This document shows positions 1 through 42,462 of a DNA stretch of 42,462 nucleotides, one piece after another. Location: the sequence record NC_073320.1, one strand, 5' to 3'. Under the pieces are notes generated by a model. The model worked only from the letters and a program-made list of their open reading frames with translations, had not been told where the DNA came from and did not search any database. Each line of letters starts with the position of its first letter. Position 1 is the first letter of the stretch. The position numbers were made by a program, and so were the translations under genes. The stretch comes from Escherichia phage 26.

Positions 1-2011
1 CATATGCGAGTAAATCACGGCACAGCGCCTGAACAATGTTTTCGCAGGCTTTGCCGCCGTGGGTGTACAGGGTAGTCCATTGGCGGGTTAACTGGTTTTC
101 ACCCTGATACTTGATTCGCACATTCGTGTTTACTCGTCCGTCTTCGTCTGTTTCCTTTGTCACACTAACGCCGATTCCCGGATACGAGAGGATACGGCCT
201 GACGGCAACTCCACACACAACCACCAACCTGGAACCTTCCTGCCGGATAAATCGGTTTCTACTGTTCTCCAGATTCGGATAGCGCGCTCGCCATTCTTGC
301 GCAGATGCGCCCCCGCCCAAAATTCACGACCCGGATTTCTTACAGCGGCTAAAATACCGTCTTTGAGGTCTCGCCAGAACGCTACTGTTTCCGGGTGTGA
401 CTCACGCCACATACGCTTGATTGCGTCACATGTGCGCCACACTTTCTTGTCCAGAATATACGACGGTCGGTCATCCTTTTCACCTGGATGTGGCGGTCGC
501 TTGGCTTCCTGGATACGCGCCCATTCATACCCTCTCGCAGTGGCCGACCAGATGTGGTCCGGGAATGTACCGTCCATTGTTTTAGCCATCTCAATAAGGT
601 CAAGACCTAGGTTTTTAGCAAACGTAACGAACGCTCCGACACCCCCCTCATAGCCGAGGCCAAGCTCGCATGCTTTGCCTATCTGTCTGATTTCCTTGAA
701 GTTTTTCTTAATATCGTCGGGGTCCATGCCGAACATCTTGCCCGCGGTTACGCAGTAAATATCCAGTCCGGCGCGGAACGTATCGAGCGCGGTTTCTTCG
801 CCCGCCAGCCACGCAAGCCCTCGTCCTTCAACGTTAGAGTAATCAGCAACAACAAACTTATGCCCAGCTTCCGGTATGATGCAACTACGAACCGTCGATG
901 CCGTTAGTTTGGCTACATCGAAACGGCGATGCGCGCGGCCCTTAAGTAACGCAGAAATCCCTTTATCCAGTTCATCATCGTGATAGTACCCGCGCGCCAG
1001 GTTCTGTGGTTGGAAGCCTTTACCCGCCCACCGCAAAGTGCGTTTTGCCCCACCGTACTGTAAACACCCCCGGCGGCGGTCGTCAGAAGAGCGGCCTAAC
1101 AGCAGCGGGTTATATTTCGTTGACGCTGTTGATGCGGCCCCGAGCCGCATTTCGATAATCGTGCGAGCGTCGTCCGGTAAATCATCATCAGCCAACAGGT
1201 CGTTAAGCGTCGATTTCTGTGCGTTGTGGATGCGGTGTGCGGGTGCGAGTTCACGCAGAATCGGAAGGAAGTCTTTACCAGTAAGCGAGCCGCCGTATTT
1301 GCGCTGTGCTTCTTCATGTAACTGTGCCTTGTGTTTCTCCACGGCTTCAATCGCGGATTCCGCCAGTGCAACGTCAACCTTAAACCCACGGTCGTTGATT
1401 AACTGGTCCAGTTCCAGTACACGGTCCTCGAACTCGGAGTTACCCCACCGCGGCAGCTTATGGAAGACTTCACGCATCGCTGTGATGTCGCTAACGGCGT
1501 ACTTGATGAACATCTCCCACTCGTCCGGGTGCGTTTCGGCGGTGTAGCGGCGTATTTTGTAGTTCTTAGGTGTCGGTTTAGAGAAACGCTGAATCAGCGC
1601 CTTACCGCGTTTGTCCTTTGCGTTGTCCGCGGACACGCCCAGCACTTCGCACAACGCATCAAGTGAACCCGGCAGCGCGTGACGAAACGCCCAAATCATC
1701 GTATCAATGGTGTTGCTTACCGGAATATCAAAGCCCCAGCAGTGCTTCATGATGAGCCTATCGAAAAGTCCACCGTTGTGCCACACCATCTTGATGCGGC
1801 TGTTCGGCTTCACCAGGCGGCGTAACGCGCGGTGTAAATCTCCCGGCATGTCGCTGCCGTCGGTGCAATCCCACACCTGCACAGGCTCGTCATCAAAAGC
1901 ATAGGTACAGATTAGCACTTCGGTGGTTGGGTGTTCAGCGTAAGCGTAGGAGCCGACTTTCTTTAAATCGGCTTCGGAGAATGTTTCAAAGTCTAAGAAC
2001 AGGTAACTCAT
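1..2011 (-). CDS. DNA polymerase, family A with 3'-5' exonuclease domain (first 670 codons; gene wraps the window junction and ends at 42272)
   Basis: ATG at 2011-2009; N-terminus MSYLFLDFETFSEADL has a DnaQ-like Exo I (D-x-E) motif; frame stays open to position 2 and joins in-frame with 42462 (..LLAYA/MINVEGGG..). Confidence 0.85.
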   Translation of the reverse strand, partial: MSYLFLDFETFSEADLKKVGSYAYAEHPTTEVLICTYAFDDEPVQVWDCTDGSDMPGDLHRALRRLVKPNSRIKMVWHNGGLFDRLIMKHCWGFDIPVSNTIDTMIWAFRHALPGSLDALCEVLGVSADNAKDKRGKALIQRFSKPTPKNYKIRRYTAETHPDEWEMFIKYAVSDITAMREVFHKLPRWGNSEFEDRVLELDQLINDRGFKVDVALAESAIEAVEKHKAQLHEEAQRKYGGSLTGKDFLPILRELAPAHRIHNAQKSTLNDLLADDDLPDDARTIIEMRLGAASTASTKYNPLLLGRSSDDRRRGCLQYGGAKRTLRWAGKGFQPQNLARGYYHDDELDKGISALLKGRAHRRFDVAKLTASTVRSCIIPEAGHKFVVADYSNVEGRGLAWLAGEETALDTFRAGLDIYCVTAGKMFGMDPDDIKKNFKEIRQIGKACELGLGYEGGVGAFVTFAKNLGLDLIEMAKTMDGTFPDHIWSATARGYEWARIQEAKRPPHPGEKDDRPSYILDKKVWRTCDAIKRMWRESHPETVAFWRDLKDGILAAVRNPGREFWAGAHLRKNGERAIRIWRTVETDLSGRKVPGWWLCVELPSGRILSYPGIGVSVTKETDEDGRVNTNVRIKYQGENQLTRQWTTLYTHGGKACENIVQALCRDLLAY

Positions 2012-2027
2012 TATTTTCGACCCTTAG

Positions 2028-2052
2028 TAAAAAGGCCCAATGAAGGGCCTTA
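2028..2052 (-). terminator. hairpin AAGGCCC-N6-GGGCCTT with U-tract in minus orientation, between SSB-like and polymerase genes (attenuator)
   Basis: 7-bp GC stem, T5 run on minus strand. Confidence 0.4.
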
Positions 2053-2070
2053 GTTAAATTGATTCAGATA

Positions 2071-2697
2071 TTAACGGCGACGACGTTCGCGGCGAGGTGC
2101 TTCGTCTTCTTCGTCGTCTTCCAGGTCATTAACGCTTGCAGCGACTTTAGAACCACCGAATGCTTTACCTTCGCTGACGTATTTAATCGCCAGCAGGTTA
2201 ACACCGAGAACTTTGTATTTCTGGCTGAACCAGATTTCGACGCTTACGTTAGCAACGCAGCCGCTGTAAACCTGTTCACCTTCAATCTGTTCACCGTCTA
2301 CATTGAAGTCCTGTTCTACCTGAGTCTCGCCTTTTTTAGAGGTTACAATCAGCGGTTGTTTCTGTGCCTTCGCTTTGAAGTAGAAACCTTCCGGGAAGTC
2401 TTCAAACGGATTGTCGCGCTCGGCAATGTCTTTAATCGCGCATTTATCCATGTGCTTACCTTCGCCGTAGTTTGACTTCATCCACTTCTCGGCAGCGGCG
2501 GCCCCTAGTGCTTCTTCTACAACCGCGTAAACGGTGTCGTACATTTCGTCGATTTGCGCATGGTCTGACGGCAGGATGATAGTCGCGCTGTACTGACCTT
2601 TAGTGATAGAGCCATCGTCGTTTTCACGGTCTTTTTCGCGTTCGAATACGTTAACCCATGCAGTGTTTACTTTACGCAGATTCAGTTTAATACCCAT
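2071..2697 (-). CDS. ssDNA-binding-like protein (DUF2815-type by context)
   Basis: 208-aa ORF between Cas4-like nuclease and PolA; acidic stretch NDLEDDEEDE near C-terminus; called from position and composition, no diagnostic motif. Confidence 0.45.
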   Translation of the reverse strand: MGIKLNLRKVNTAWVNVFEREKDRENDDGSITKGQYSATIILPSDHAQIDEMYDTVYAVVEEALGAAAAEKWMKSNYGEGKHMDKCAIKDIAERDNPFEDFPEGFYFKAKAQKQPLIVTSKKGETQVEQDFNVDGEQIEGEQVYSGCVANVSVEIWFSQKYKVLGVNLLAIKYVSEGKAFGGSKVAASVNDLEDDEEDEAPRRERRRR

Positions 2698-2765
2698 CGT
2701 GATTTCTCGCTTTTCAGTTTATATTTCAAAGTTTACTCCGGGAAGCTGCCCGGCCAGTGATTAGA

Positions 2766-2794
2766 ACTATAATAGCTAACTATTCAGGTGTCAA
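2766..2794 (-). promoter_or_regulatory. sigma70-type promoter P3 (TTGACA-17-TATAGT) with AATAG-N4-CTATT dyad in the spacer
   Basis: minus-strand reading TTGACAcctgAATAGttagCTATTATAGT just upstream of SSB-like and polymerase genes. Confidence 0.5.
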
Positions 2795-2798
2795 CACT

Positions 2799-4040
2799 TT
2801 ATTCTAAATCTTCTTCACTAACCTGATTCCACTCAGGACGTTTGTCGTCTGCCGTTGCGACACATGGCGCACCGGTCTTGCGGGTAATGAAGTCTTTCAG
2901 TTCTTCTTCCGGTATAACTTTAACGGCCTCGGTCGGCGTCATAAGCACTTCTTTAGTCAGCTTGTCGCCGTACTTCTCGAATACCGCATCGGAATCTTTC
3001 CACGCACGGTTGCCCATCTTACCCTCAACCAGCTTGTACCCCGGCACTTTCTTACCGGAATGCAACGCGGCGGCCATAGCTTTTTCAACCTTATCAATGT
3101 GCTGACGCAACAACGGCAGCTTCTCATACTCAGCGACGAGTTGCTCCGGCGTAAGTTCCGGCGCAAAGTCGTCTTCCAGTTCTTCCGCCAGTACCGCGTT
3201 AACCGTCTTTGTACGCGCGGCGCATTGTTCTGAGAACCGACACCACTGACAACCATCGACCGACGGCCTGAAGTCCGACGCTTTCAGGTTCTTCTTGCCA
3301 CGGAAATACGCATCAAGAGCCAACATCGCACGTTTCTGCGCGAACTTAGCGAACAGTTCCAGACCTTCAACCGAGATGTCCCACTCCGATGCACCGCCAG
3401 CGTATGGCTGAAAGATGACCAGGCGAACAACTGTGATGTTATAACGTCTCTTGAGTCGGCGATAAACACCGAGAGCGTAAAGCATAAGCTGCTTGTTTTC
3501 TTTCGCTTCGACACGATGTCGTCCTGTTTTCAGGTCGCCGATGATTAGCATGTGCTCGTCGGTGTTGGCTAGTTCCTGAACGGCAACAAAGTCAGCGGTT
3601 CCGAACGTCTCTACACCTTCATATCCTGGATGCAATACCTCAGTAAGATTGACACGCATCTCGAGCTTGGCGAAAGTCGCTACATCTATAATCGCTTTGC
3701 AGTAGTCGGTGTACTTTCGCACCTGCTCAATCATGTCAGCCGTAATCAGTACCGCGCCTTTCATCGGACTGATTAGTGCCTTAATCGGGCCTTTACCCCC
3801 ATCCAGCACGTAAGCGCCGACTTCACGCACTAACGGTAACGCAGTGCCCTTGATGTACTGGTTAAGATGGACCTCAGCTATAGTGTGGCCCGCGATTCCT
3901 GTAATGGCGGATTTACCGGATGTGTTAGGAATATCTTTTTCACAGGCCAGTGATGCCGCACAGTAGAGCCACTTCTTGGCGCCTGATGGCGACAGTAGGG
4001 CGTGCACATCGTTATTGCCGCCACGTTCTTTTAAAATCAT
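2799..4040 (-). CDS. PD-(D/E)XK RecB-family nuclease with Cas4-like Cys cluster (DUF2800-type)
   Basis: motifs IIGDLKTG, EAKEN, QLMLYALG; C-terminal CQWCRFSEQC; start placed at ATG 4040 after RBS GGAGAGGG (track ORF begins at upstream TTG 4061). Confidence 0.7.
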   Translation of the reverse strand: MILKERGGNNDVHALLSPSGAKKWLYCAASLACEKDIPNTSGKSAITGIAGHTIAEVHLNQYIKGTALPLVREVGAYVLDGGKGPIKALISPMKGAVLITADMIEQVRKYTDYCKAIIDVATFAKLEMRVNLTEVLHPGYEGVETFGTADFVAVQELANTDEHMLIIGDLKTGRHRVEAKENKQLMLYALGVYRRLKRRYNITVVRLVIFQPYAGGASEWDISVEGLELFAKFAQKRAMLALDAYFRGKKNLKASDFRPSVDGCQWCRFSEQCAARTKTVNAVLAEELEDDFAPELTPEQLVAEYEKLPLLRQHIDKVEKAMAAALHSGKKVPGYKLVEGKMGNRAWKDSDAVFEKYGDKLTKEVLMTPTEAVKVIPEEELKDFITRKTGAPCVATADDKRPEWNQVSEEDLE

Positions 4041-4183
4041 TCTTCTACCCTCTCCACCCAAGCATCGTCAAAAGTATCAAAATCAAGATTATCGTATGCC
4101 GCGTACGCGTCATTTACATCTGAGTATCGGCTGTGCTCTGTAGCCACGCCATTAGTGTAAGTAAATATTGCCCAGTAAATCAT
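4037..4183 (-). CDS. hypothetical protein, 48 aa
   Basis: below track cutoff; RBS GAGGG 9 nt before ATG 4183; stop overlaps nuclease start (ATGA). Confidence 0.4.
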   Translation of the reverse strand: MIYWAIFTYTNGVATEHSRYSDVNDAYAAYDNLDFDTFDDAWVERVEE

Positions 4184-4194
4184 AATTCCGACCC

Positions 4195-4431
4195 TCAATC
4201 CAAACTATCAACGTCAAGTTCGTCCAGCATAGACTCCGCCTCATCTGCTGCGGAAATAAGCGCTTTAGCAAGTTCTCTCGCCATATAAGGCGTATACTCC
4301 ATGAATGAAAGCCCTGTCATATTATCCGCACGGTCGAAATCTAGAGTTACTCTTTTCTGCTTACCCTGTATCGTGTTGCGAACCTCAAGGCTAACTCTGG
4401 TTTCATCGTTGTTAATATCTTTAATAATCAT
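4195..4431 (-). CDS. hypothetical acidic protein, 78 aa
   Basis: start moved to internal ATG 4431, giving ATGA overlap with upstream stop. Confidence 0.5.
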   Translation of the reverse strand: MIIKDINNDETRVSLEVRNTIQGKQKRVTLDFDRADNMTGLSFMEYTPYMARELAKALISAADEAESMLDELDVDSLD

Positions 4432-4700
4432 ACCCTGTTCTCCCACTGGTCAATTAAATGTCGCGTCTTATGGTCACAGTGCATAGCCCATCCATACATT
4501 GACTCGAAGACATAAAAGTCAGGTTTGGCGAAAGTCGTGCGCTTAATCTGCGACACATGACGGCCTATATCTTTAGGCTGTGGTACTTTTCCTAAGTACG
4601 CCATCTCTTCCATCTGGTGCGCACCGGACGTCGCACGCAACAACCACAACGCCTCTGTGTTATCCCGCCGGTCTACGGCTCGGTAGAGTTGGTAAATCAT
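4428..4700 (-). CDS. hypothetical protein, 90 aa
   Basis: start moved to ATG 4700, giving ATGA overlap with upstream stop. Confidence 0.5.
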   Translation of the reverse strand: MIYQLYRAVDRRDNTEALWLLRATSGAHQMEEMAYLGKVPQPKDIGRHVSQIKRTTFAKPDFYVFESMYGWAMHCDHKTRHLIDQWENRV

Positions 4701-5032
4701 TGCGCCTTCTCCTGCATTTTCAGAAAGACAATCATAGCGGCGCGTAGAGGGTTTGTACCGATAACACATGAGTCGTCTACGTAAATCATACTGGTTGCGT
4801 CTCCGGTAATACCGTCAATAACCGCATTATCCGGTAAAGCAATCCATTCTAAATCTGTAGCTACAATCGAGATATTGTTACCGGTGATAACAGGCCACGC
4901 GTCCTGTATCCGATTACAATAATCTACTACTCCAGAAGCTAATGCCATCTGATGTCCTTGTGAGACATCTCCGTATAACGCGCGGCTGACACGTGCATTA
5001 ATTTCTATGTCTGTTAAATTTTCGTATTTCAT
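4697..5032 (-). CDS. hypothetical protein, 111 aa
   Basis: ORF in leftward early operon. Confidence 0.5.
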   Translation of the reverse strand: MKYENLTDIEINARVSRALYGDVSQGHQMALASGVVDYCNRIQDAWPVITGNNISIVATDLEWIALPDNAVIDGITGDATSMIYVDDSCVIGTNPLRAAMIVFLKMQEKAQ

Positions 5033-5075
5033 AATTCCTACCCTCAGTTAAAGCGGCCCGAAGGCCGCCGGATAG

Positions 5076-5546
5076 TTATTCTTCTTCGAAATACTTGTTC
5101 TTGATTGCTGTCAGGCGTTCCAGATATTCAGCCAGGTCTTCGTCTTTAATCGCGGCAATCTTCATCTTCTTACCGGTGAACTCTTCCAGCAGTTCATCGG
5201 AATCATCGCACGCGGCATCGCTCGGACCTTCGTTAATCGCATCGTCGATAGCCTGAATCTGGGCACGCAGAGACTGGTAATCGACTTCTTCTTTCTCTTC
5301 TTCCGGCTCTGGCGTTGGTCCCTCTACTTTAGCTTTACGCGGTTTGCGTTTCGGCTTCTCTTCTTCCGCCGGTTTAGTGTCAACGATGTCTTCACCTTCG
5401 ACCGGGATTTCTTTTGTTGCTTCTTTTGCAACAGTAGGCTCGATTGTTGCGGTTTCAGCAACGGCAACTTGTTTCGCACTGTTCGCAGCAATCAGTTCAT
5501 GCGCGACTACGAAACGTTCCAGTAATTTTAAGAATTGGTCTAACAT
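5076..5546 (-). CDS. hypothetical acidic early protein, 156 aa
   Basis: RBS GAGGAGAG; Lys/Glu/Pro-rich low-complexity middle, acidic tail ..KYFEEE; first gene after promoter P2. Confidence 0.55.
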   Translation of the reverse strand: MLDQFLKLLERFVVAHELIAANSAKQVAVAETATIEPTVAKEATKEIPVEGEDIVDTKPAEEEKPKRKPRKAKVEGPTPEPEEEKEEVDYQSLRAQIQAIDDAINEGPSDAACDDSDELLEEFTGKKMKIAAIKDEDLAEYLERLTAIKNKYFEEE

Positions 5547-5577
5547 TTGTTTCTCTCCTCTCGTTTGGTACGGGCTA

Positions 5578-5607
5578 ACTATAATAGCGAACTATTCATT
5601 ATGTCAA
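5578..5607 (-). promoter_or_regulatory. sigma70-type promoter P2 (TTGACA-18-TATAGT) with AATAG-N4-CTATT dyad; divergent from XRE gene
   Basis: minus-strand reading TTGACAtaatgAATAGttcgCTATTATAGTTAGCC; same block as P1 and P3. Confidence 0.5.
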
Positions 5608-5671
5608 TTGGCTTTCCTAAAATAATTAATATGGTACTATTCACATATAAACTGACTAAGGAGTAATTACT

Positions 5672-5887
5672 ATGCAACCATCTGAACTAGGCATCCGTGT
5701 AGAACAACGCCGTAAAGAACTCGGCATCTCCCAGCGCCGTCTGGCCGTCCTGACTGGCGTTTCCCAGGGCGCGATTAACCAGCTGGCACTCGGGGTAACT
5801 CAGGACGTACGCCCGGCAACGTTGTTTAAACTGGCGGAAGTGCTGCAAGTAGATGCTAAGTGGCTGGCGCTAGGTGAAGGGGCTTAA
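5672..5887 (+). CDS. XRE-family (Cro/CI-like) helix-turn-helix transcriptional regulator
   Basis: 71 aa; HTH LGISQRRLAVLTGVSQGAINQLALG; RBS TAAGGAG; only plus-strand gene in the early arm. Confidence 0.8.
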   Translation: MQPSELGIRVEQRRKELGISQRRLAVLTGVSQGAINQLALGVTQDVRPATLFKLAEVLQVDAKWLALGEGA

Positions 5888-5902
5888 GCCCCTTTCTTTT
5901 TA
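5876..5902 (+). terminator. rho-independent terminator of XRE gene
   Basis: AAGGGGGC-TTAA-GCCCCTT hairpin containing the stop codon, then TTCTTTTT. Confidence 0.45.
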
Positions 5903-6097
5903 TTGCACCTTTATCGGGTATCTTTTGCGAAACTTACCTAACCCGCAGTACACGCTGTAAGCCTCTGTGTAACTGTACACAACATGATACCCACGCCCAT
6001 AAGGAACTACGTTAAGAACTTCTACTATTTCGCCTCTGTGGTTGGTGTATTTATTACCTTTCAGTTCGTCGCTTACTTCTTTAAATTTACCGCTCAT
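5900..6097 (-). CDS. hypothetical protein, 65 aa
   Basis: ATGA overlap with primase-helicase stop. Confidence 0.5.
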   Translation of the reverse strand: MSGKFKEVSDELKGNKYTNHRGEIVEVLNVVPYGRGYHVVYSYTEAYSVYCGLGKFRKRYPIKVQ

Positions 6098-8334
6098 TCC
6101 AAATCCTCCTCTGTCACGGTCAGCATCTCATTCGGTTCGTATATTGTCTTTGGCCTTAATCTGTCACCCATCTTTTCCGGTATCCGGTATGTGCCGGGTA
6201 TAACTTCACCGTTAACATCGCACCCTAACATCAACTCACCGTCTTTCAGCATCTTCTCGAGATGATGGTTGGTGATGGCGTGGTCGCCAGAATTCGCCAC
6301 TATCTGCCGTTGTGTGAAGCCTCGTCCGGTGTCGTCTGACTGTTGCAGGTCTTCCAGCGCTGCAAGTATTGATTCCTTACGCCCTTCATCCTCTCCACGT
6401 TTTACAGCGTTCTTTACGTTTTCTTTACCTTCCTTTGTCAGCCCTTCTTCTCGTTCTTTCTCCTCGTCAGTCTTGAACGGCTCGAAGCCCCACGGCATCA
6501 GTACAAGCGCCTTGTGCGGCTCAGGCAGGTCCAGGTTTACGATTATGCCGTACTCCTCTGTGCTACCCAGGAACTCAACCGCGCGGTATTCTTTCGGCGG
6601 CTGGGCTTCACGGAACTGTACCGACTCAAGCACCATGCCAACCGTTTTCTGTTGGGGCCCGTGCTTAAATTTCGAGTGGTATACGTTTATCTGACGGTCG
6701 GTTGCACGCTCGATTGTCAGTTCCACGTCGACACCTGCATACAGTGCCCCGCTGCCGCGGGCTTTCTTTCCACCCTTCGGTGTATGGTGGACAACGCCTA
6801 CCGCGGCTTTAGTTGCGTCGCGTACTTCTTTCAGAATGGCGATAACTTTACCCATACCGATTGCCGTCGATGAGCTGTTCTCGTCGAACTTATCAATTGT
6901 CAGTGCCAGTGTCTGGTTGAGGGTGTCAAACGCAATCATGCCGATTGGCTCGTCGCCAGCGGTTTCACGCATTATCTTAATCAGGCTTTTCAGTTTTCCG
7001 ACTTCACCCATGTCGATGACGTGTACATAATCTTTACCCTCAACGCCGTATTTAGCCGCGAGTGCATCAATACGTGTACGTGTGGCTGCGCCACCTTCAC
7101 CGTCGATATAGAAGTGGTGGCAACGCTGGGTGTCCGCCCCTGCGAAGCGATAGCCGGCGGCGCTAAGGTACATCATCCCCAGCGTATAAAACGATTTGTA
7201 CGTGCCGGATTCCCCGACGATATCCCAGATACAATCCGACGGCATGTACCCCTCAACGACGAAATCGGCCTTTACCGGTTCCGGTAGCTCGTCCTCCCCT
7301 GAGTCATCCTCGTCTTCCAGGTCGTCGAGGCTGCATGAAACTGACTCACGCGTACCCCAACCGATGGCCTCCGCCACTTCACTGAACGGCAGCCCGGTAG
7401 CATCGCACGCGTATTTCCACACTTCTTTCGGTGACATGCCTTCGGTAGCCGTGATGTCGGTGTCGTGAATCATGGTTACGTTCGGCGCTTCGTACCCTTC
7501 GCGTGGGAAGCACAGCAGGAAGTCGTCTGGGCGCGGCGTCGGGTCGCTGTATTTTCCTGCATGTTCTGGCGTAGCGGGCATTTTCAGTCCGCGTGGTGTC
7601 ATGACGCCGCCGTACTCAAACGCCAGTGCTTCAAACGCGTCAGTAAACGCGGTGCGCAGTTCTTCCGGTATCTGGTAATCCGATGCGCTGCTAACATCAA
7701 CGGCCGGGATGCCTTCCAGTAACTCTTCTTGGTCAATCAGGTCGTTGCGGCGCGACCAGATAACCTGAGAGCCAACTGGTGGCAGGTACATCGGTTGTGA
7801 AAGAGTGAAACCGCTGCGGTCCGCACCCATGCCTTTGAAGAAGTGCTCCAGCAATCCATGACGAACACGGATGATGTCGCCACCTTCGACCGGACGACCC
7901 AATGGCATGACGACACGAAAGCGCGGGGACTCGTCGGTATGTGATGCCGTGGTATATAGACACATCGCCAGGCGGCTGCGCTTAACCAGGCGCACAGCTT
8001 CCTGATACTCTTCCGGTGTTGCGCTGTCGAAGTCCAGATACGCCAGCGACGATTTGCTTACAGATGCATCGCAGCGATAGAAGAACCCTTTACGCGCTTG
8101 CTTAAAGTCACCGGTTTCCGGGTCTTTTACGGTGCTGTGCGTAGCGTCGCACGCGGCAGTGATATAGCCCGGTGCTGTCTTAGGGTTAACCCCATCACGA
8201 ACGGCATCGAGCGGCTGGATCAACTCTTTCAGGTCGTCCAGCGTTGCCGTGTGTGTGGTTCTGACGTTTATATCCTTTTTCTCCGCACGCGCGTTGCGAC
8301 GTGACCACGAGTAGGATAGAATTACATCGGACAT
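6094..8334 (-). CDS. replicative primase-helicase (N-terminal primase-like domain plus RecA/DnaB-like ATPase)
   Basis: 746 aa; Walker A GESGTYKS in C-terminal half; C-terminus ..VTEEDLE. Confidence 0.7.
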   Translation of the reverse strand: MSDVILSYSWSRRNARAEKKDINVRTTHTATLDDLKELIQPLDAVRDGVNPKTAPGYITAACDATHSTVKDPETGDFKQARKGFFYRCDASVSKSSLAYLDFDSATPEEYQEAVRLVKRSRLAMCLYTTASHTDESPRFRVVMPLGRPVEGGDIIRVRHGLLEHFFKGMGADRSGFTLSQPMYLPPVGSQVIWSRRNDLIDQEELLEGIPAVDVSSASDYQIPEELRTAFTDAFEALAFEYGGVMTPRGLKMPATPEHAGKYSDPTPRPDDFLLCFPREGYEAPNVTMIHDTDITATEGMSPKEVWKYACDATGLPFSEVAEAIGWGTRESVSCSLDDLEDEDDSGEDELPEPVKADFVVEGYMPSDCIWDIVGESGTYKSFYTLGMMYLSAAGYRFAGADTQRCHHFYIDGEGGAATRTRIDALAAKYGVEGKDYVHVIDMGEVGKLKSLIKIMRETAGDEPIGMIAFDTLNQTLALTIDKFDENSSSTAIGMGKVIAILKEVRDATKAAVGVVHHTPKGGKKARGSGALYAGVDVELTIERATDRQINVYHSKFKHGPQQKTVGMVLESVQFREAQPPKEYRAVEFLGSTEEYGIIVNLDLPEPHKALVLMPWGFEPFKTDEEKEREEGLTKEGKENVKNAVKRGEDEGRKESILAALEDLQQSDDTGRGFTQRQIVANSGDHAITNHHLEKMLKDGELMLGCDVNGEVIPGTYRIPEKMGDRLRPKTIYEPNEMLTVTEEDLE

Positions 8335-15548: not shown

Positions 15549-15557
15549 CCACACCAC

Positions 15558-15580
15558 AAGCCCTCTACGGAGGGCTTTTC
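15558..15580 (+). terminator. rho-independent terminator
   Basis: AGCCCTC-TACG-GAGGGCT then TTTTC. Confidence 0.5.
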
Positions 15581-15675
15581 TGTACATACCGCCCAATCCC
15601 CTTATATAATCCCTTTAGACGCGTAGGGCGCGTCTAGTGCGCTCTGATGGTCAGACGCATATGCAAGGGGATTCT

Positions 15676-16188
15676 ATGAAGCTGAAACTCAAGCAGCCAT
15701 CGCCAGAGGTGGTGCAAGCTGCACATGAAGAAGCTGTTAGCGCAAACCGTCGCCGTAGACGACCGCGCGGCAAACAGAGCCTTTATCAATCATCCCGTAA
15801 TTCCGCAGCGTTGTGGGACCCGGACTATTGCGATGAGTTAATCGAGTTCTTCGACCGCACGTCGTGGGAGCTTGTGCCTACGTCCAAAGGTGACGAACGC
15901 CCATTAATTCAGGATAAACCGCCATCGCTCGCCCGCTTCGCCTTACACATCGGCGTCACTATCCCGATTATTAAGCTGTGGCTGCGCGAGATTCCCGCAT
16001 TTGCAGAAGCCTATGAAACTGCGCAGGCACTGGAAGAGGCATACTTCACTGAGACAGGGGCTGCGGGCATCTCTGCTACGTTTGCCGCCGCGAAACTGGG
16101 CCTGAATAAGAAAGAAGAATCGACTGGCGAGGGTTCCGAACCTATTGAGATTCGTTTCGTTAAGGCTGTTAAACCGGGGGTTGAGTAA
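15676..16188 (+). CDS. terminase small subunit (by position)
   Basis: 170 aa directly upstream of TerL with shared stop/start (TAATG); basic N-terminus RRRRRPRGK; start ATG 15676 chosen after AAGGGGA. Confidence 0.55.
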   Translation: MKLKLKQPSPEVVQAAHEEAVSANRRRRRPRGKQSLYQSSRNSAALWDPDYCDELIEFFDRTSWELVPTSKGDERPLIQDKPPSLARFALHIGVTIPIIKLWLREIPAFAEAYETAQALEEAYFTETGAAGISATFAAAKLGLNKKEESTGEGSEPIEIRFVKAVKPGVE

Positions 16189-17423
16189 TGGATATTCCAT
16201 TAACAGAACCCCAACAGGACTTTGTATTCAGTACAAAAACACATCCGGCTATTGTCGCAGGACTGGGGGCCGGCAAGTCCCGGGCGGCCACTATGCGTCT
16301 CCTGTATCTCATGTTGCGCGAGCGCGGGATAAATACCCTGTACACCATGCCTACATATGACCTGTTGAAGCTGCGCGCCATCCCCGGTGTGGTTGATGAC
16401 CTGAATATGATGGGGCTTAAGTATGACCTCAACAAATCGGAATACAGTATCCACGTTAAGGGGTACGGCACTATGTTTTTCAGGTCATACGACAACCCGA
16501 ACCGTCTAATCGCTTTTGAAGTAGCCCATTCTGTCGCCGATGAACTTGACGTTCTTACTAAAGAACAGGCATCTCTGGTGTGGCGTAAAATTTCAGAGCG
16601 TACCCGACAGCCTTGCAGAGGGGGTAACAGTATTGCTGCTGTGACCACCCCTGACCAGGGATTCTCTGGATTTGTGTATGACTATTGGGTTACTAACGCC
16701 GATAGTTCTACGGAACTGATTAAGGCTTCTACGTTGTCGAACCCCTATTTACCTGATGGCTACGTCGAACAGATACGCAGGAACTACGACGCGGCTTTAG
16801 CCGATATGTATATCAACGGTGAATTTGTCAGTTTGACGGCCAATAAGGTGTATCACTATTTCAAACGAAGCACCCATGACTCCACTCGCACCTTGCAGAA
16901 CGGGGACGCTCTGCACATAGGGCTGGACTTTAATATCGGTGGATGTTGCGCCACTGTGAGCGTTATCGAAGACGGCAACCCGACGGTGGTTGATGAGTTT
17001 GTTAGCCATAATACCGACGACTTCGTTAATAATGTGAGGATACGGTACCCAGGCCATACGGTTACGGTTTACCCTGACGCCTCGGGCCGCTCAGGCCACA
17101 CTAATGCATCATTATCCGACATAGGTATCATAGAAAAGGCGGGTTTACGTGTTAATGCCCCAAGTAAGAACCCATTCGTTAAAGACAGAATAAACGCGGT
17201 TAACGCTCTTTTGTCGCATAGCCGTTTGAGGGTTAACACTTCAAAATGCCCTAAATTAACGCAGTCACTGGAGACGCAGGGGTATAACGATAATGGTGAA
17301 CCGGAGAAGTTCAAAACACACCCGGCTATTGACGACTGGAACGACAGTTTAGGTTATTGTATGCATAGGCTGTTCCCTGTTGTTCGCCCTGTTATCAATA
17401 CACCAGTTCGTTTCGCAATTTAA
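16188..17423 (+). CDS. terminase large subunit
   Basis: 411 aa; Walker A GLGAGKS; upstream of portal. Confidence 0.8.
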   Translation: MDIPLTEPQQDFVFSTKTHPAIVAGLGAGKSRAATMRLLYLMLRERGINTLYTMPTYDLLKLRAIPGVVDDLNMMGLKYDLNKSEYSIHVKGYGTMFFRSYDNPNRLIAFEVAHSVADELDVLTKEQASLVWRKISERTRQPCRGGNSIAAVTTPDQGFSGFVYDYWVTNADSSTELIKASTLSNPYLPDGYVEQIRRNYDAALADMYINGEFVSLTANKVYHYFKRSTHDSTRTLQNGDALHIGLDFNIGGCCATVSVIEDGNPTVVDEFVSHNTDDFVNNVRIRYPGHTVTVYPDASGRSGHTNASLSDIGIIEKAGLRVNAPSKNPFVKDRINAVNALLSHSRLRVNTSKCPKLTQSLETQGYNDNGEPEKFKTHPAIDDWNDSLGYCMHRLFPVVRPVINTPVRFAI

Positions 17424-18910: not shown

Positions 18911-18940
18911 AAAAAGGCCCCATAGCGGGGCCTTAGTTTT
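18911..18940. terminator. bidirectional terminator AAGGCCCC-ATAGC-GGGGCCTT
   Basis: 8-bp GC stem flanked by A-run upstream and T-run downstream; sits between convergent portal (+) and DnaN-like (-) genes. Confidence 0.6.
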
Positions 18941-19460
18941 ATTTAAATCTTGCGGGCATTAGCACCATATATGCAGTGTTTGAAAATGATATTTTGCATC
19001 CTCTGGTTTGGTCCTGGAAATCGAAACGAGCAATTTCATTTTTGTATGCCTTAGAAATCTTGTGCGCGTCCGCCAAGTAGGGCATGGTGAATCCTATGCT
19101 ATCAACCGCCCCAGGCGTGATGTGCGCCACACGCCGCCAGTCAGGAAATTTTCCGTCTACAACATCCACCGGAAGTGTACATATAAGCGAACGACTATCG
19201 TCATAGAAAGAAACACTGCTGTAGTCGTGGTCTACTTCCGCGTAGTTAAATTTATAAGGCTCTCTCCCTTTGATGTCTATGAGAACCCCATTCTCGACGT
19301 TTGTCTTAACATTGTCGCAGAACAATCTATGGCCGTCCGTAGACACTATCAACCCTTCCGGGTCTATGTAAAAAGCATTCAGATAGTAGCGCACATCATT
19401 TTTAGCTCTGCATATTTTTGCCCCTATATACGCAGGGAAAGTAATTACTGTAGTAATCAT
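18939..19460 (-). CDS. truncated beta sliding clamp (DnaN) homolog, 173 aa
   Basis: motifs DVRYYLN, STDGHRL, VDGKFPDWRRV, IGFTMPYL, AYMVLMPARF match domain II and the C-terminal end of domain III of bacterial DnaN (recalled E. coli DnaN); RBS GAGGAGGAG; opposite strand to flanking late genes. Confidence 0.7.
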   Translation of the reverse strand: MITTVITFPAYIGAKICRAKNDVRYYLNAFYIDPEGLIVSTDGHRLFCDNVKTNVENGVLIDIKGREPYKFNYAEVDHDYSSVSFYDDSRSLICTLPVDVVDGKFPDWRRVAHITPGAVDSIGFTMPYLADAHKISKAYKNEIARFDFQDQTRGCKISFSNTAYMVLMPARFK

Positions 19461-23740: not shown

Positions 23741-23755
23741 GGTTAAGCTATAATC

Positions 23756-23784
23756 GAGAGGGACTTCTGTCCCTCTTTTCATTT
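23756..23784 (+). terminator. rho-independent terminator after capsid gene
   Basis: AGAGGGA-CTTCTG-TCCCTCT then TTTCATTT. Confidence 0.5.
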
Positions 23785-38979: not shown

Positions 38980-39465
38980 TCACGCGGTTTCTCCGTGTTT
39001 TTCATGAAATCCGTAAGCAGCCTCCGCAGCTTTACGTGCGGCAACAGCTTCGTCAAAATTATCAAACTGTCCTAGATGTATTTTTCTTCTGTCGACTTTT
39101 ATCTATGCCACCCATTTGTTTCTTCTCTTTTCCCGCCATACGCCAAGAGCGCCACTAGTATTGTTTACCCCTATTGATGCGTTGCGGCTATTTCCGGTGT
39201 TGGTAACTTTCCGTAGGTTGCATATTCGGTTATCAGTTCGAATATGATTGATGTGGTCTATCTGTTCCTGTGGCGTAAGTGGGTTATCTGGGTTGCAGAT
39301 ATTCCACGCTAACCGGTGCGCCAGTTATAATTTTCCGTTTACTCGGATACGAATGTACCCATCCCGTGGGCAAAAACATCCTGCTTTCTTTCCGATAAAA
39401 CCCATACGTTTTGTTTCTACCCATGTAAAAATACCGGTTTCTGGGTCGTAAGATATCTTGCTCAT
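38980..39465 (-). pseudogene. HNH-AP2 homing endonuclease gene disrupted by two in-frame stop codons
   Basis: frame from ATG 39465 reads MSKISYDPETGIFTW..GYIRIRVNGKL-TAA-LAHRLAWN..IDHINHIRTDNRICNLR..NKWVA-TAG-IKVDRRKIHLGQFDNFDEAVAARKAAEAAYGF..-TGA; no frameshift, stops at 39325-39327 and 39103-39105. Confidence 0.7.
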
Positions 39466-40886
39466 TTCTTACTCCTACGTTTCATATACTCAAGGAGGAT
39501 ATCCTGCACCTGTTTTTTCTCGTCTGTACGAGCGGCGACAACTTCATCAAGAGTATCTCGGGCTATTATTTTATAAATGAATACAGACCGTTTGTATCCG
39601 GATTGCATCTGCCTTACCGGGCCTATGCGCTCGATAACCTGCAAATAGTGTTCCAGGTTCCACCCCTGACTCATAAAGGCCATGTGATGCCCGCCGTGTT
39701 GTAGCGACAGCCCGTGACCTGCGGACGCTGGGTGTATCAGGAGCATAGGTATTTCACCACGGTTCCACGCTTCCATCTGCTTATTACCCTTAGCCCCTTT
39801 GGCGAACGCCTGTGCTTGCGGGAATCGCTTAAGGATACGCTCCAGTTCGTGCTTAAACTGATATGCCACCAGTAGCGGCGCGCCATGTAACTCCTCAACA
39901 ATGGACTCCAGCGCATCCAGTTTCGTGTCGTGCACTTTCTCCCAGTCTTTTGTTGCTTCGCCGTCTGGCCCTGACACATATACGGCACCAGATGCAATCT
40001 GCAAACACTTCGACGTCTTCGCTGCGGCGTTAGCGGCTTCAACTTCCCCGCTCTCCAGTTCCGCAAATAACTTCTCCTCCATATCTATGTACGCCTGACG
40101 CGCCTTCTTCGGAAGGTCTATTTCAACCGGCACAATAATCGGCGATTCACATCCGAACCACTCGGCGGCGTCAATCGTGAGACTAATGTCCTTCATCTTC
40201 TGGTGAATTTCATTATCCGCCCCCGGGCGGGCATGATACTCCCGTGCCATAGCCGATTTGCCTTTTTGCACCGAGTTAAACCAGCGGTCGGTGAACGCTG
40301 TGTACGAAGAACCGAGGCGCTCGCCTGCGTCGATAAACCAGTTCTGACCCCACAAGTCTTTTAGGCCGTTTGGCGATGGCGTACCAGTCAGGTTGATAAA
40401 ACGCTTAACCTTACCGAACGCAACCTTACTGAGCGCCTTCGCCCTCTTGCTGCCACCTGAACGACTACGGAACGATTTCAGCTTAGTGCTTTCATCCGCA
40501 ACAATAACCGTAAAAGGCCAGTCGTCTTTGCCGTAGTAGTCAATCAGCCACTCGATAACTTCGTAGTTCGTGCACACCACGTTGGCATCGGACTCCAGCG
40601 CCGCGATGCGGCGCTTCTCTGAACCGGTCGCATCTACAACACTCAGGCATGGGAATTGCCATTTCTCTTGTTCTGCGGGCCACGTACCAGACGCAACACG
40701 TAAAGGAGCCAGAATTAACACTCGGTCATCGTCATTAAGTTGCCCATTACGGAACAGTCTGTTGAGAACCCACAACGTTGACCCTGACTTACCACTGCCC
40801 ATCGAAGCCCATATGTTACATCGAGGGTGCCGCAACATGAACGAAGTCATGAGCTTCTGATATTCGCGCCTTTGAAACTTAGACAT
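39462..40886 (-). CDS. SNF2/DEAD-like superfamily 2 helicase
   Basis: Walker A MGSGKS, motif II IVADEST, motif VI QVIERIGPVRQ. Confidence 0.8.
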   Translation of the reverse strand: MSKFQRREYQKLMTSFMLRHPRCNIWASMGSGKSGSTLWVLNRLFRNGQLNDDDRVLILAPLRVASGTWPAEQEKWQFPCLSVVDATGSEKRRIAALESDANVVCTNYEVIEWLIDYYGKDDWPFTVIVADESTKLKSFRSRSGGSKRAKALSKVAFGKVKRFINLTGTPSPNGLKDLWGQNWFIDAGERLGSSYTAFTDRWFNSVQKGKSAMAREYHARPGADNEIHQKMKDISLTIDAAEWFGCESPIIVPVEIDLPKKARQAYIDMEEKLFAELESGEVEAANAAAKTSKCLQIASGAVYVSGPDGEATKDWEKVHDTKLDALESIVEELHGAPLLVAYQFKHELERILKRFPQAQAFAKGAKGNKQMEAWNRGEIPMLLIHPASAGHGLSLQHGGHHMAFMSQGWNLEHYLQVIERIGPVRQMQSGYKRSVFIYKIIARDTLDEVVAARTDEKKQVQDILLEYMKRRSKK

Positions 40887-41562
40887 GATTAGCCTCGTAA
40901 ACTGCTTTTGCGAAACCCCGCGGAGTAAGGCTGCGTATTGTTTTTGTCCCCACCGATTTACCGCCTAATTTATTGTGTTGGTCAGAGTAACCGCCAACCA
41001 CGGCGACACATGATTTAACAGGCATCACAAAACCGTTACCCGCCCAAATACATGTCTTCTTAGGGTACGCGTCCCGCGGTTTTATGTATTCGGGGAACAT
41101 TGGGTGCGTGTCGTCTTCGGGTAAATAGCCGCCGTATTCGTATGGATTGAACGCGTAGTCAGGCTTACGCCATAAAGACGAAAGAACGCTAACAGGGTTC
41201 TCAATCATATAAGGTACGTTGTACTTTTTAGCCAGACGCGCCGCCACTTTGCATGTAATTACGGCCTCTACCTGAAACGTGGGGTTCTTCTTCCGCTTCG
41301 TTTCAAAATGCGCCGCGCCGCTAACGGCTAAATCTGTGCACGGAGGGAACGCAAAAATAATATCCGGCGCAACCCCGAAGTCGAATTTATTGTCAATCCA
41401 AGCGTTTATATAGTGGATGTTTTCGTGTTCAACTTTTGCACCCAATCGTGCGTAGTCTCCGTGGTCGGCGCCATCGTAGTTGAAACAATAGCAAGTATGG
41501 CCTGCTTCCGCCCACGGTTGGGCCATAAGGCCCGAACCGTCAAACAATGACCAGACAATCAT
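40879..41562 (-). CDS. C5-cytosine DNA methyltransferase-like protein (short, no obvious target-recognition domain)
   Basis: motif I-like LFDGSG, motif IV-like FPPCT, motif VI-like ENP; 227 aa. Confidence 0.5.
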   Translation of the reverse strand: MIVWSLFDGSGLMAQPWAEAGHTCYCFNYDGADHGDYARLGAKVEHENIHYINAWIDNKFDFGVAPDIIFAFPPCTDLAVSGAAHFETKRKKNPTFQVEAVITCKVAARLAKKYNVPYMIENPVSVLSSLWRKPDYAFNPYEYGGYLPEDDTHPMFPEYIKPRDAYPKKTCIWAGNGFVMPVKSCVAVVGGYSDQHNKLGGKSVGTKTIRSLTPRGFAKAVYEANHV

Positions 41563-41750
41563 TTCAGCACCAGAACTAACTCTTTACGCCCGAACGCCGT
41601 AACGTTACCGGTTACATCTTCGATAACCAGTTTACCGTTCGACTCGACGTACACCGTATCAACGGCAACAGGACTACGGGTCTTAACGTTGAAAATCATG
41701 TCGCCTGGTACGATGTCACGTGCGGGTTTGCGGTCATATTCGTGTTTCAT
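41559..41750 (-). CDS. hypothetical protein, 63 aa
   Basis: ATGA overlap with methyltransferase-like gene. Confidence 0.5.
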   Translation of the reverse strand: MKHEYDRKPARDIVPGDMIFNVKTRSPVAVDTVYVESNGKLVIEDVTGNVTAFGRKELVLVLK

Positions 41751-41780
41751 TTCTCAATTCCTTATATTGTTGGTGTAAGG

Positions 41781-42068
41781 CTAACTATAATAGTTCGCTA
41801 TTAGGTCGTCAACCTGTTTAAACGAACCGACGACAAAAACATTCGCACCACGTTTCCGGAATCTCTCATGTTCCCGTAGCTGGTGCGGGTCTGGCTTCGT
41901 GTTTTCGTCTTTCTTTATCTCAACGAACCAGATGATGCCGCCGGGGAGAATTACCAGGAGGTCCATGGCGGCTCGCCGACCTTCAAATGCCATCTTGCGA
42001 ACGAGGCCACCAATGGCCTCGAATCGGTATTTTGCGTATTTCTGGATTCGCCCTTCAGGCGTACTCAT
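41781..42068 (-). CDS. VRR-NUC domain nuclease
   Basis: DLLVILPGGIIWFVEIKKDENTKPDPHQLREHERF; start ATG 42068 (track ORF begins at 42077). Confidence 0.65.
   Translation of the reverse strand: MSTPEGRIQKYAKYRFEAIGGLVRKMAFEGRRAAMDLLVILPGGIIWFVEIKKDENTKPDPHQLREHERFRKRGANVFVVGSFKQVDDLIANYYS
41784..41812 (-). promoter_or_regulatory. sigma70-type promoter P1 (TTGACG-17-TATAGT) with dyad, embedded in the 3' coding end of the VRR-NUC gene
   Basis: minus-strand TTGACGacctAATAGcgaaCTATTATAGT-TAG; the TAG is the VRR-NUC stop. Confidence 0.45.
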
Positions 42069-42154
42069 AATACGCACCCCTCACGTTTCGTATGCTCAAT
42101 CCCGCAGCGTGGACAGATTCGACAGTCTTCTTCGTATAGCCAGTAAATTTTCAT
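42065..42154 (-). CDS. possible 29-aa Cys-rich peptide
   Basis: MKIYWLYEEDCRICPRCG..; ATGA overlaps at both ends; very short. Confidence 0.2.
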   Translation of the reverse strand: MKIYWLYEEDCRICPRCGIEHTKREGCVL

Positions 42155-42282
42155 TCCAGCACCCACAGATAAATTGCGATGAACATACCTAATACGGCGA
42201 CAATCATGCCGTATTGGCCTTCGTGACAGTAGACCCCAGCGGCGAATCCCGCCAGTACCGCGATAATCAGTTTACTTAGCAT
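42151..42282 (-). CDS. possible 43-aa membrane peptide
   Basis: MLSKLIIAVLAGFAAGVYC..MIVAVLGMFIAIYLWVLE, two hydrophobic segments; start overlaps polymerase end. Confidence 0.3.
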   Translation of the reverse strand: MLSKLIIAVLAGFAAGVYCHEGQYGMIVAVLGMFIAIYLWVLE

Positions 42283-42462
42283 AACGCTTCATCTCCGCAC
42301 CTTCCGCTACAAGAGGGAAACCCTCAGCCCATTCCGGCAGCGAGCACATTAATTTTTCCAGTTCGCCCACCGTGTACTCTGTGGTATCCGGAGTTTCACA
42401 TACCAATTCATCGTGTACCGAAAGCACGATGGGATACCCGCCACCCTCAACATTAATCATCG
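42272..42462 (-). CDS. DNA polymerase, family A, C-terminal 63 codons (continuation of 1..2011 across the window junction)
   Basis: contains motif C LSVHDELV; stop TAA 42274-42272; frame contiguous with position 1. Confidence 0.85.
   Translation of the reverse strand, partial: MINVEGGGYPIVLSVHDELVCETPDTTEYTVGELEKLMCSLPEWAEGFPLVAEGAEMKRYAK

What the first reader, a model, noticed from the sequence alone, without database searches (positions are those of the whole stretch)
1..42462. Window ends are contiguous: polymerase ORF wraps in-frame, so this is a complete circularly permuted genome
The minus-strand polymerase frame starting at ATG 2011 is still open at position 2. Joining position 1 to 42462 continues the same frame into the ORF ending at 42272 (..RDLLAYA-MINVEGGGYPIVLSVHDELV..), giving one 733-aa family-A polymerase with exonuclease motifs at the N-terminus and motif C at the C-terminus. 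Annotation should therefore treat the sequence as circular, and the physical ends (pac or cos) are elsewhere, not at the window boundaries.
Basis: seen in the sequence. Interest (0 to 1): 0.4.

Follow-up and report, generated by a model that had tools for sequence, protein, structure and literature searches.

The report
Phage genome opened inside its polymerase gene
The window is one complete genome of a Kagunavirus-type phage whose circular assembly was cut open in the middle of the DNA polymerase gene; this is an ordinary record-keeping artefact that matters only for annotation.

Summary
On the minus strand, the ORF from ATG 2011 is open to position 2. Position 1 plus 42462-42461 form codon GCG (Ala671), and the frame runs on to TAA 42274-42272, giving 733 aa.

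The join is real, not chance:
- An independent ENA scaffold (99.7% identical) aligns without gaps for 11,971 nt straight through the junction, and its polymerase is 733/733 identical to the joined ORF.
- A Logan contig, six IMG/VR contigs and hundreds of GenBank relatives also carry the junction internally.

The window is collinear with Raoultella phage RP180 around the whole circle. RP180's own record ends map to adjacent window bases (15556|15558), so the window is a complete genome of a Kagunavirus-like phage (Guernseyvirinae).

Virion DNA that is terminally redundant and circularly permuted (headful packaging) is inferred, not shown:
- A profile of the large terminase subunit (TerL) matches headful terminases (SPP1, Sf6, T4, P1) and not cos terminases.
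- Relatives were found permuted by PhageTerm, restriction digests and Bal31.
- One caveat: this TerL is a minority allele, only about 39% identical to the genus-typical one.

This is ordinary and already known. The practical step is to rotate the sequence before annotation.

The parts
1..2011 (-). DNA polymerase gene, 5' part: codons 1-670 (2011..2) plus the first base of codon 671 (position 1). Holds the 3'-5' exonuclease region and polymerase motifs A and B.
   Evidence: Collinear with the RP180 and PST-H1 polymerases.
42272..42462 (-). DNA polymerase gene, 3' part: the last two bases of codon 671 (42462-42461), codons 672-733 and the TAA stop (42274-42272). Holds motif C (HDE, residues 687-689).
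   Evidence: A linear ORF scan lists it as an orphan 62-aa ORF.
42461..42462 (-). The junction codon GCG (Ala671), completed by window position 1. This is an arbitrary opening point of a circular assembly, not a physical end.
   Evidence: ENA scaffold L033 aligns without gaps, at 99.69% identity, from window 34533 through the junction to 4041. The exact 33-nt junction word lies inside six IMG/VR contigs.
39462..42271 (-). Downstream part of the minus-strand replication gene block that the window boundary cuts through: a 43-aa membrane peptide ORF overlapping the polymerase stop, a VRR-NUC/resolvase-like nuclease (41781-42077), a 63-aa ORF (41559-41750), a DNA methyltransferase (40879-41562) and an SNF2-type helicase (39462-40886).
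   Evidence: The same gene order is seen in L032/L033.
2071..8334 (-). Upstream part of the same replication block: an Enc34-type ssDNA-binding protein (2071-2697), a DUF2800/PD-(D/E)XK nuclease (2799-4061), small ORFs and a replicative primase-helicase (6094-8334).
15556..15558 (.). The place where the ends of the RP180 GenBank record (44851|1-2) map. It lies about 80 nt upstream of the small terminase gene terS and is the conventional start point for this genus.
   Evidence: window 14912-15556 matches RP180 44209-44851, and window 15558-16109 matches RP180 2-553.
15637..16188 (+). Small terminase subunit (TerS). This is the most likely location of the pac site (inference by analogy with P22, SPP1, Sf6 and P1).
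   Evidence: phrog_3064, E = 6e-72. 89.9% identical to RP180 TerS. The pac location itself was not tested.
16188..17423 (+). Large terminase subunit (TerL), minority allele. Its profile groups with headful terminases.
   Evidence: Pfam Terminase_6N/6C. hhalign probabilities: SPP1 97.8%, Sf6 95.9%, T4 94.8%, P1 79%; lambda, HK97 and P2 below 1%. 39% identical to the typical Kagunavirus/Jerseyvirus TerL, 99.8% to phage AV104.
17436..18908 (+). Portal protein.
   Evidence: phrog_145, E = 7e-148. 97% identical to the RP180 portal.

Best explanation
The window is one full unit length (42,462 bp) of the genome of a virulent Kagunavirus-like siphophage (Guernseyvirinae, Sarkviridae). Its reads assembled into a circle, and the circle was written out as a line from an arbitrary point. 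That point falls inside codon 671 of the family-A DNA polymerase gene, in the middle of the minus-strand replication gene block. All of this is shown.

The inferred step concerns the virion DNA. It is most likely linear, terminally redundant and circularly permuted. Replication would make concatemers. The terminase (TerS 15637-16188, TerL 16188-17423) would make a first cut at a pac site, probably in or near terS. It would then fill successive heads with slightly more than one genome length. Ends would therefore be spread around the map, and no unique physical end would exist at the window boundary or elsewhere.
For: Ends contiguous:
- In-frame 733-aa ORF across the join.
- ENA ERZ28613977 scaffold_561 aligns without gaps over 11,971 nt at 99.69% identity through the junction, and its polymerase is 733/733 identical.
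- Logan contig SRR21357621 is 99.2% identical and also spans the junction.
- ENA ERZ10551855 contig (42,440 bp) has an internal 733-aa polymerase.
- Six IMG/VR contigs hold the exact 33-nt junction word internally.
- The join aligns without gaps in RP180, PST-H1 and BCH953P1, and 266 phage records cover at least 80% of a 2-kb junction query.

Complete genome:
- Collinear with RP180 all round the circle, and RP180's own ends are adjacent in the window.
- 50 of 64 RP180 proteins are present in the same order, including all packaging, head, tail, lysis and replication genes.
- The length lies within the 40.6-45.8 kb range of relatives.

Arbitrary opening:
- Related records and contigs break at different places. 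RP180 breaks upstream of terS. The ENA scaffold end maps to window ~10415. PV656001.1 breaks at polymerase codon 137.

Headful packaging (inferred):
- The TerL profile matches SPP1 G2P over its full length (hhalign 97.8%), then Sf6, T4 and P1 PacB. It does not match lambda A, HK97 gp2 or P2 P.
- Jerseyvirus Se_F1 was called redundant, random-ended and permuted by PhageTerm (PMC9409062).
- Jerseyvirus K47 was called headful by PhageTerm, with a circular-like restriction map and a broad PFGE band (PMC10783031).
- Serratia phage eta, whose TerL is 33% identical to the window's over its full length, is highly permuted by Bal31, restriction digests and PCR (PMC3918226).
- Kagunavirus fBC-Eco01 showed no obvious termini with PhageTerm (PMC9825357).
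- The window has no terminal or internal repeats.
Against: - No reads are available, so neither junction-spanning coverage for this particular assembly nor the distribution of ends could be examined.
- A circular assembly is also what cos phages and short-direct-repeat phages give.
- The window's TerL is not the genus-typical one. It is about 39% identical to the Jerseyvirus/Kagunavirus TerL for which packaging data exist and 33% identical to that of eta. The transfer of packaging mode from relatives is therefore weaker than the genome-wide ~90% nucleotide identity suggests.
- TerL-based prediction of packaging type is a correlation, not a test.
- One paper on a Kagunavirus speaks of a cos site, without evidence for it.
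Confidence: 0.85

Rival explanations
1. The genome is complete and the window ends are contiguous, but the virion DNA has fixed ends (cohesive ends or short direct terminal repeats) somewhere else in the map. The assembly closed into a circle only because of concatemer-derived reads or a collapsed repeat.
For: Circular assembly alone does not distinguish packaging modes. The TerL allele is divergent from those of relatives with packaging data. For two Kagunaviruses PhageTerm gave no call at all.
Against: The TerL profile has no detectable affinity to the lambda, HK97 or P2 cos terminases, and only weak affinity to T7 (hhalign 18%), against 95-98% for SPP1 and Sf6. Independent assemblies of the same or related phages break at different positions rather than at a shared end. 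Relatives tested experimentally are permuted.
Confidence: 0.11
2. The window boundary is a real packaging start: a termini-prediction tool or the packaging series itself placed position 1 at a pac cut that happens to lie inside the polymerase gene.
For: Some pipelines re-orient headful genomes to a predicted pac position. Nothing in the sequence alone can exclude a cut site here.
Against: Known pac sites of P22, SPP1, Sf6 and P1 lie in or next to the small terminase gene (established knowledge; the P22 and P1 annotations show this). Position 1 is about 15.6 kb from terS. No repeat or notable motif is present at the boundary. Related records and contigs do not break here.
Confidence: 0.03
3. 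The in-frame continuation is a coincidence or a mis-join: the two polymerase pieces come from different molecules, or the window is a fragment of something larger.
For: None found.
Against: An independent scaffold has a 733/733 identical polymerase and an ungapped 12-kb alignment across the join. Whole-circle synteny with RP180 has nothing missing at the join. The polymerase length is identical in relatives.
Confidence: 0.01

Closest known systems
Raoultella phage RP180 (MK737937; Kagunavirus, Guernseyvirinae) and other Kagunavirus isolates (K1G, fFiEco03, BCH953P1, CR01)
   Same: Same gene order around the whole circle. The polymerase is 733 aa and 96.9% identical, the portal 97% and the major capsid protein 96%. 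Nucleotide identity is about 88-93% where the genomes align.
   Different: Only about 73% of the window aligns to RP180 at the DNA level. TerL (39% aa), the primase-helicase (31% aa) and the tailspike receptor-binding part are different alleles. 14 small or accessory RP180 genes are absent. No isolate record in the phage collection reaches 95% identity.
ENA metagenome scaffold ERZ28613977 scaffold_561 (43,577 bp) and Logan contig SRR21357621_37529
   Same: 99.2-99.7% nucleotide identity over 12-14 kb spanning the junction. The polymerase, helicase and ssDNA-binding proteins are identical or nearly so, and the tailspike gene has the same 658-aa length. These are the same phage lineage.
   Different: Opened at other points, with the scaffold end at window ~10415. 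They carry an intact HNH gene where the window has 384 bp of different sequence (4044-4428), and an intact HNH/AP2 gene where the window has two stop codons.
Headful (pac) packaging phages SPP1, Sf6, P22, P1 and T4
   Same: The TerL profile is related over its full length to SPP1 G2P and, in the ATPase domain, to Sf6 gp2, T4 gp17 and P1 PacB. The terS-terL-portal gene order is shared.
   Different: Pairwise sequence similarity is marginal. The pac site, terminal redundancy and processivity of the packaging series are unknown for this phage.
GenBank record PV656001.1 (Escherichia phage vB_Eco_ORH_001)
   Same: A 'complete genome' record opened inside the same polymerase gene. Joining its ends restores a 733-aa ORF that is 721/733 identical to the window's.
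   Different: It is opened at codon 137 rather than 671, and the polymerase is not annotated at all in that record.

Membership tests
Family A DNA polymerase (Pfam PF00476) with N-terminal 3'-5' exonuclease | Match to the DNA_pol_A profile above Pfam's gathering score | tested here: met
   65.4 bits against a cut-off of 34.3 for the joined protein. PDB hits are to Taq, Bst and Klenow polymerases.
Family A DNA polymerase (Pfam PF00476) with N-terminal 3'-5' exonuclease | Catalytic motifs A (DYSxxE), B (R...K...Y) and C (HDE) in order | tested here: met
   Residues 390, 442 and 687. Motif C aligns with Taq QVHDE. Motif C is encoded only after the join.
Family A DNA polymerase (Pfam PF00476) with N-terminal 3'-5' exonuclease | Proofreading exonuclease domain (DnaQ-like, ExoI D-x-E) | tested here: inconclusive
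   PF01612 scores 22.7 bits, just below its 23.6 cut-off; RNase_H_2 scores 19.9 against 22. A D-F-E-T motif is present at residues 7-10. The ExoII and ExoIII motifs were not examined.
Genus Kagunavirus (Guernseyvirinae, Sarkviridae) | Shared gene order and core proteins with genus members | tested here: met
   Whole-circle collinearity with RP180, with 50 of 64 proteins shared. The best DNA matches are Kagunavirus records.
Genus Kagunavirus (Guernseyvirinae, Sarkviridae) | ICTV genus criterion of about 70% nucleotide similarity over the full genome length | tested here: inconclusive
   Against RP180, 73% of the window aligns at roughly 88% identity, or about 65% overall. Other members cover 65-87% of each half at 86-90%. 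No VIRIDIC-type calculation was run.
Headful (pac) packaging with terminally redundant, circularly permuted virion DNA | The genome map closes into a circle with no unique ends in assemblies | tested here: met
   The junction is internal in independent assemblies, and reciprocally RP180's ends are internal in the window. Breakpoints differ between records.
Headful (pac) packaging with terminally redundant, circularly permuted virion DNA | Large terminase groups with terminases of known headful phages | tested here: met
   hhalign of a 9-sequence TerL profile gives SPP1 97.8%, Sf6 95.9%, T4 94.8% and P1 PacB 79.2%, against lambda 0.2%, HK97 0.1%, P2 0.3% and T7 18%. T1, which is also headful, scores only 1%, so the test is imperfect.
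Headful (pac) packaging with terminally redundant, circularly permuted virion DNA | Random or redundant read starts, more than 100% of a genome per virion, no Bal31-sensitive fragment | not testable with these tools
   This needs reads or virion DNA. It is shown only for relatives: Se_F1, K47 and eta.
Cohesive-end (cos) packaging | Large terminase of the lambda, HK97 or P2 type | tested here: not met
   No significant profile match to lambda A, HK97 gp2 or P2 P. Pfam assigns Terminase_6N/6C, not the Terminase_GpA or Terminase_1 families.

The most novel reading that the evidence does not exclude
The minority TerL allele has been swapped almost gene-for-gene between a conserved terS and a conserved portal gene. 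It may give this lineage a packaging behaviour different from that of typical Kagunavirus/Jerseyvirus phages, such as another pac specificity or even fixed ends. That would be a natural packaging-motor exchange within a single genus.
Probability: 0.07. Interest if true: 0.35.

Novelty: already known. Interest (0 to 1): 0.1.

Why it matters
The value is practical. Annotated as a line, the record yields a polymerase without its catalytic motif C plus a meaningless 62-aa ORF, or no polymerase at all, as happened in GenBank record PV656001.1. Rotating the sequence to start just upstream of terS (window 15557/15558, the RP180 convention) fixes this and makes the genome comparable with its relatives. 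It also warns against describing the window boundaries as genome termini. Biologically nothing new follows, because permuted, terminally redundant genomes are the known state of this phage group.

Tried and rejected
- Pairwise phmmer and blastp of the window and RP180 TerL against eleven reference terminases gave only marginal hits. A 9-sequence profile was needed.
- A single-sequence PDB search with TerL found nothing useful. The profile search found the Thermus-phage, T4 and Sf6 terminases, but I do not know the packaging mode of the best hit (5oe8), so I did not use it.
- I tried to find the window's own source, or an identical genome, with a 40-nt word from the tailspike gene in IMG/VR and JGI metagenomes and with an exact look-up of the tailspike protein. 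Nothing was found. Look-ups of the helicase and the ssDNA-binding protein then succeeded.
- Literature searches for a direct determination of Kagunavirus ends found only 'no obvious termini' and 'not determined'. Evidence had to be taken from Jerseyvirus and Serratia phage eta.
- A terminal overlap or direct terminal repeat at the window ends was looked for and is absent. No tRNA genes were found.
- I considered that relatives' polymerase genes interrupted by HNH genes might mean something is missing at the window junction. This is rejected because the junction aligns without gaps in every relative examined.
Full report
**1. The observation**

Read on the minus strand, the window has ATG at 2011-2009 followed by 670 open codons that end at position 2 with ..R-D-L-L-A-Y. 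Position 1 (g) and positions 42462-42461 (c, g) make GCG (Ala). The frame then continues M-I-N-V-E-G-G-G-Y-P-I-V-L-S-V-H-D-E-L-V.. to TAA at 42274-42272.

A scripted join gives a 733-aa ORF. Of the three minus-strand frames across the join, only this one is open (737 codons between stops); the other two are densely stopped. The ends share no overlap, and blast of the first against the last 3 kb, and of the window against itself, finds no repeat.

**2. Is the join real?**

By my estimate, a random join would preserve the frame and stay open for 62 codons about 1.7% of the time. Homology settles the matter.

- The polymerases of Raoultella phage RP180 and Salmonella phage PST-H1 are annotated at exactly 733 aa. 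They align to the joined protein without gaps at 96.9% and 89.5% identity.
- 600 nt centred on the join align without gaps in three relatives.
- On a doubled copy of the window, the RP180 polymerase aligns as a single tblastn HSP covering residues 1-733.
- A 2-kb junction query is covered at least 80% in 266 phage records.
- The exact 33-nt word spanning the join occurs inside six IMG/VR contigs of 43.7-44.6 kb, and each of them aligns across the junction.

The strongest evidence comes from exact-protein look-ups, which found independent assemblies of the same lineage.

- ENA ERZ28613977 scaffold_561 (43,577 bp) aligns without a single gap over 11,971 nt at 99.69% identity, from window 34533 through the junction to 4041. 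Its polymerase is 733/733 identical to the joined ORF.
- Logan contig SRR21357621_37529 does the same at 99.2% identity, with 730/733 polymerase residues identical.
- A third contig, ENA ERZ10551855 (42,440 bp, 98-99% identical), has the 733-aa polymerase called internally.

**3. What the protein is**

Pfam places the joined protein in DNA_pol_A (65.4 bits, cut-off 34.3). The exonuclease domain hit falls just under threshold (22.7 vs 23.6 bits). ExoI D-x-E is at residues 7-9, motif A DYSNVE at 390, motif B at 442 and motif C HDE at 687-689.

The Taq alignment places the junction in the helix just before motif C. A linear annotation would therefore give a polymerase without its motif C aspartate, plus the orphan 62-aa ORF 42272..42460 that the mechanical ORF list indeed shows.

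**4. What the window is**

The DNA matches are to Kagunavirus and Jerseyvirus phages (Guernseyvirinae, now in the family Sarkviridae). The best identities are about 90-93%, and no isolate record reaches 95%.

Against the full RP180 genome the window is collinear all the way round. RP180's own record ends (44851|1) map to window 15556|15558, about 80 nt upstream of terS. Each record thus bridges the other's ends, which defines a circular map.

50 of 64 RP180 proteins are present in the same order. They include TerS, TerL, portal, head morphogenesis, scaffold, capsid, tail, tape measure, tailspike, helicase, methyltransferase, nuclease, polymerase, ssDNA-binding protein, primase-helicase, holins and endolysin. 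The missing 14 are small or accessory genes. At 42,462 bp the window sits within the 40.6-45.8 kb range of relatives. It is one complete genome, and the boundary cuts through the minus-strand replication gene block (39462-42462 plus 1-8334).

**5. Where the physical ends are**

A circular map does not by itself show permuted virion DNA. Three lines of evidence point to headful packaging.

(a) Terminase type.
- TerL (16188-17423) hits Pfam Terminase_6N/6C.
- Pairwise comparison with reference terminases was uninformative.
- A profile of nine homologues matched SPP1 G2P over its full length (hhalign 97.8%), then Sf6 gp2 (95.9%), T4 gp17 (94.8%) and P1 PacB (79%). It gave below 1% for lambda A, HK97 gp2 and P2 P, and 18% for T7 gp19.
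- T1, also a headful phage, scored only 1%, so the test is imperfect.

(b) Relatives with packaging data.
- Jerseyvirus Se_F1 was called 'redundant, random, permuted' by PhageTerm (PMC9409062).
- Jerseyvirus K47 was called headful, with a circular-like restriction pattern and a broad PFGE band (PMC10783031).
- Serratia phage eta is linear and highly permuted by Bal31, restriction digests and PCR (PMC3918226).
- Kagunavirus fBC-Eco01 showed no obvious termini (PMC9825357).

(c) Breakpoints. Independent records and contigs break at different points: upstream of terS in RP180, at window ~10415 in the ENA scaffold, and at polymerase codon 137 in PV656001.1.

There is a caveat. The window's TerL is a minority allele, only about 39% identical to the usual Kagunavirus/Jerseyvirus TerL and 33% identical to eta's, although homologous over its full length. 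The transfer from relatives is therefore weaker than overall genome similarity suggests.

I put contiguity and completeness at about 0.98 and headful permutation at about 0.8. The pac site is most likely in or near terS, by analogy with P22 and P1 (annotated). This was not tested.

**6. Comparison, novelty and verdict**

This is the known situation for this phage group, and the same artefact exists in GenBank. Record PV656001.1 is opened at codon 137 of the homologous polymerase gene and carries no polymerase annotation. Joining its ends restores a 733-aa ORF that is 721/733 identical to the window's.

The finding is correct, useful for annotation and scientifically ordinary. The sensible action is to rotate the sequence to begin upstream of terS (15557/15558) and annotate it as a circular map of a linear, probably permuted genome.

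**7. Things seen along the way**

- TerL and the primase-helicase are allelic replacements relative to close relatives.
- Two HNH-type homing endonuclease loci differ between the window and its 99.7% twin.
- A RusA-like gene sits backwards in the head operon.
- The receptor-binding part of the tailspike has almost no relatives among sequenced phages.

Details are in the list of items noticed in passing.

Noticed in passing
window 16188-17423 (+), boundaries about 16109-16170 and 17388: TerL is a minority allele. It is about 39% identical to the TerL of nearly all Kagunavirus and Jerseyvirus records. It is 99.8% identical to that of Escherichia phage AV104, and about 93-96% identical at the DNA level to hz69, Ec1-ASingh, LM02P1 and BCH953P1. 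The swap is almost exactly gene-sized. terS upstream (90% nt) and the last ~12 TerL codons plus the portal gene downstream (88% nt; portal 97% aa) stay RP180-like.
   Followed up: partly
window 6094-8334 (-): The replicative primase-helicase (746 aa, phrog_3228) is only 31% identical to RP180's 753-aa protein, and only over the C-terminal half. The otherwise 98-99% identical ENA contig ERZ10551855 carries a 753-aa gene at this position, with no DNA match to the window there. This is a second allelic replacement.
   Followed up: partly
window 38980-39465 (-): An HNH/AP2-type homing endonuclease gene just downstream of the helicase has two in-frame stop codons in the window (G>T at nt 139 and 361 of the gene). 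It is intact (161 aa) in the 99.7% identical ENA scaffold. This is either a decaying gene or sequencing errors.
   Followed up: partly
window 4044-4428: The near-identical contigs L032 and L033 carry an intact 165-aa HNH_3 endonuclease gene here. The window instead has 384 bp of unrelated sequence with no long ORF in the corresponding position. This is a presence/absence polymorphism of a homing endonuclease.
   Followed up: partly
window 18939-19460 (-): A 173-aa RusA-like Holliday junction resolvase gene (phrog_3007, E = 5e-37) lies on the opposite strand between the portal and head-morphogenesis genes, inside the plus-strand structural operon. The same gene is called in L034 and L035.
   Followed up: no
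window 36841-38817 (+), especially 37300-38817: The N-terminal ~146 aa of the tailspike is Kagunavirus-like. The receptor-binding part has only two tblastn hits in 50,697 phage records. The best is 56% identity to the tailspike of podophage vB_EcoP_PAS61 (host E. coli O146:H21). The host glycan specificity is therefore unusual and the host is unknown.
   Followed up: partly
GenBank PV656001.1 (L039, L040): This public 'complete genome' record is opened at codon 137 of the homologous polymerase gene. Record positions 1-1781 and 43988-44456 carry no CDS, so the polymerase is missing from the annotation. Joining the ends restores a 733-aa ORF.
   Followed up: yes
window 22127-23782 (-): A 551-aa ATG-started ORF runs antisense to the scaffold and major capsid genes. 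It has no PHROG family match and is most likely a chance open frame opposite highly expressed genes.
   Followed up: partly
window about 2025-2050 (-): A GGCCC-loop-GGGCC hairpin followed by a T run lies between the ssDNA-binding gene and the polymerase start. It looks like an intrinsic terminator or attenuator just upstream of the polymerase gene. It was seen by eye, and no scan was run.
   Followed up: no
relatives (e.g. OR061068 CR01, OR061069 M01, OM272052 fBC-Eco01, PQ423993): In several Kagunavirus records the polymerase region aligns in 2-3 pieces. It is annotated as several 'DNA polymerase I' CDSs with HNH or homing endonuclease genes between them. The window's polymerase gene is uninterrupted.
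   Followed up: no
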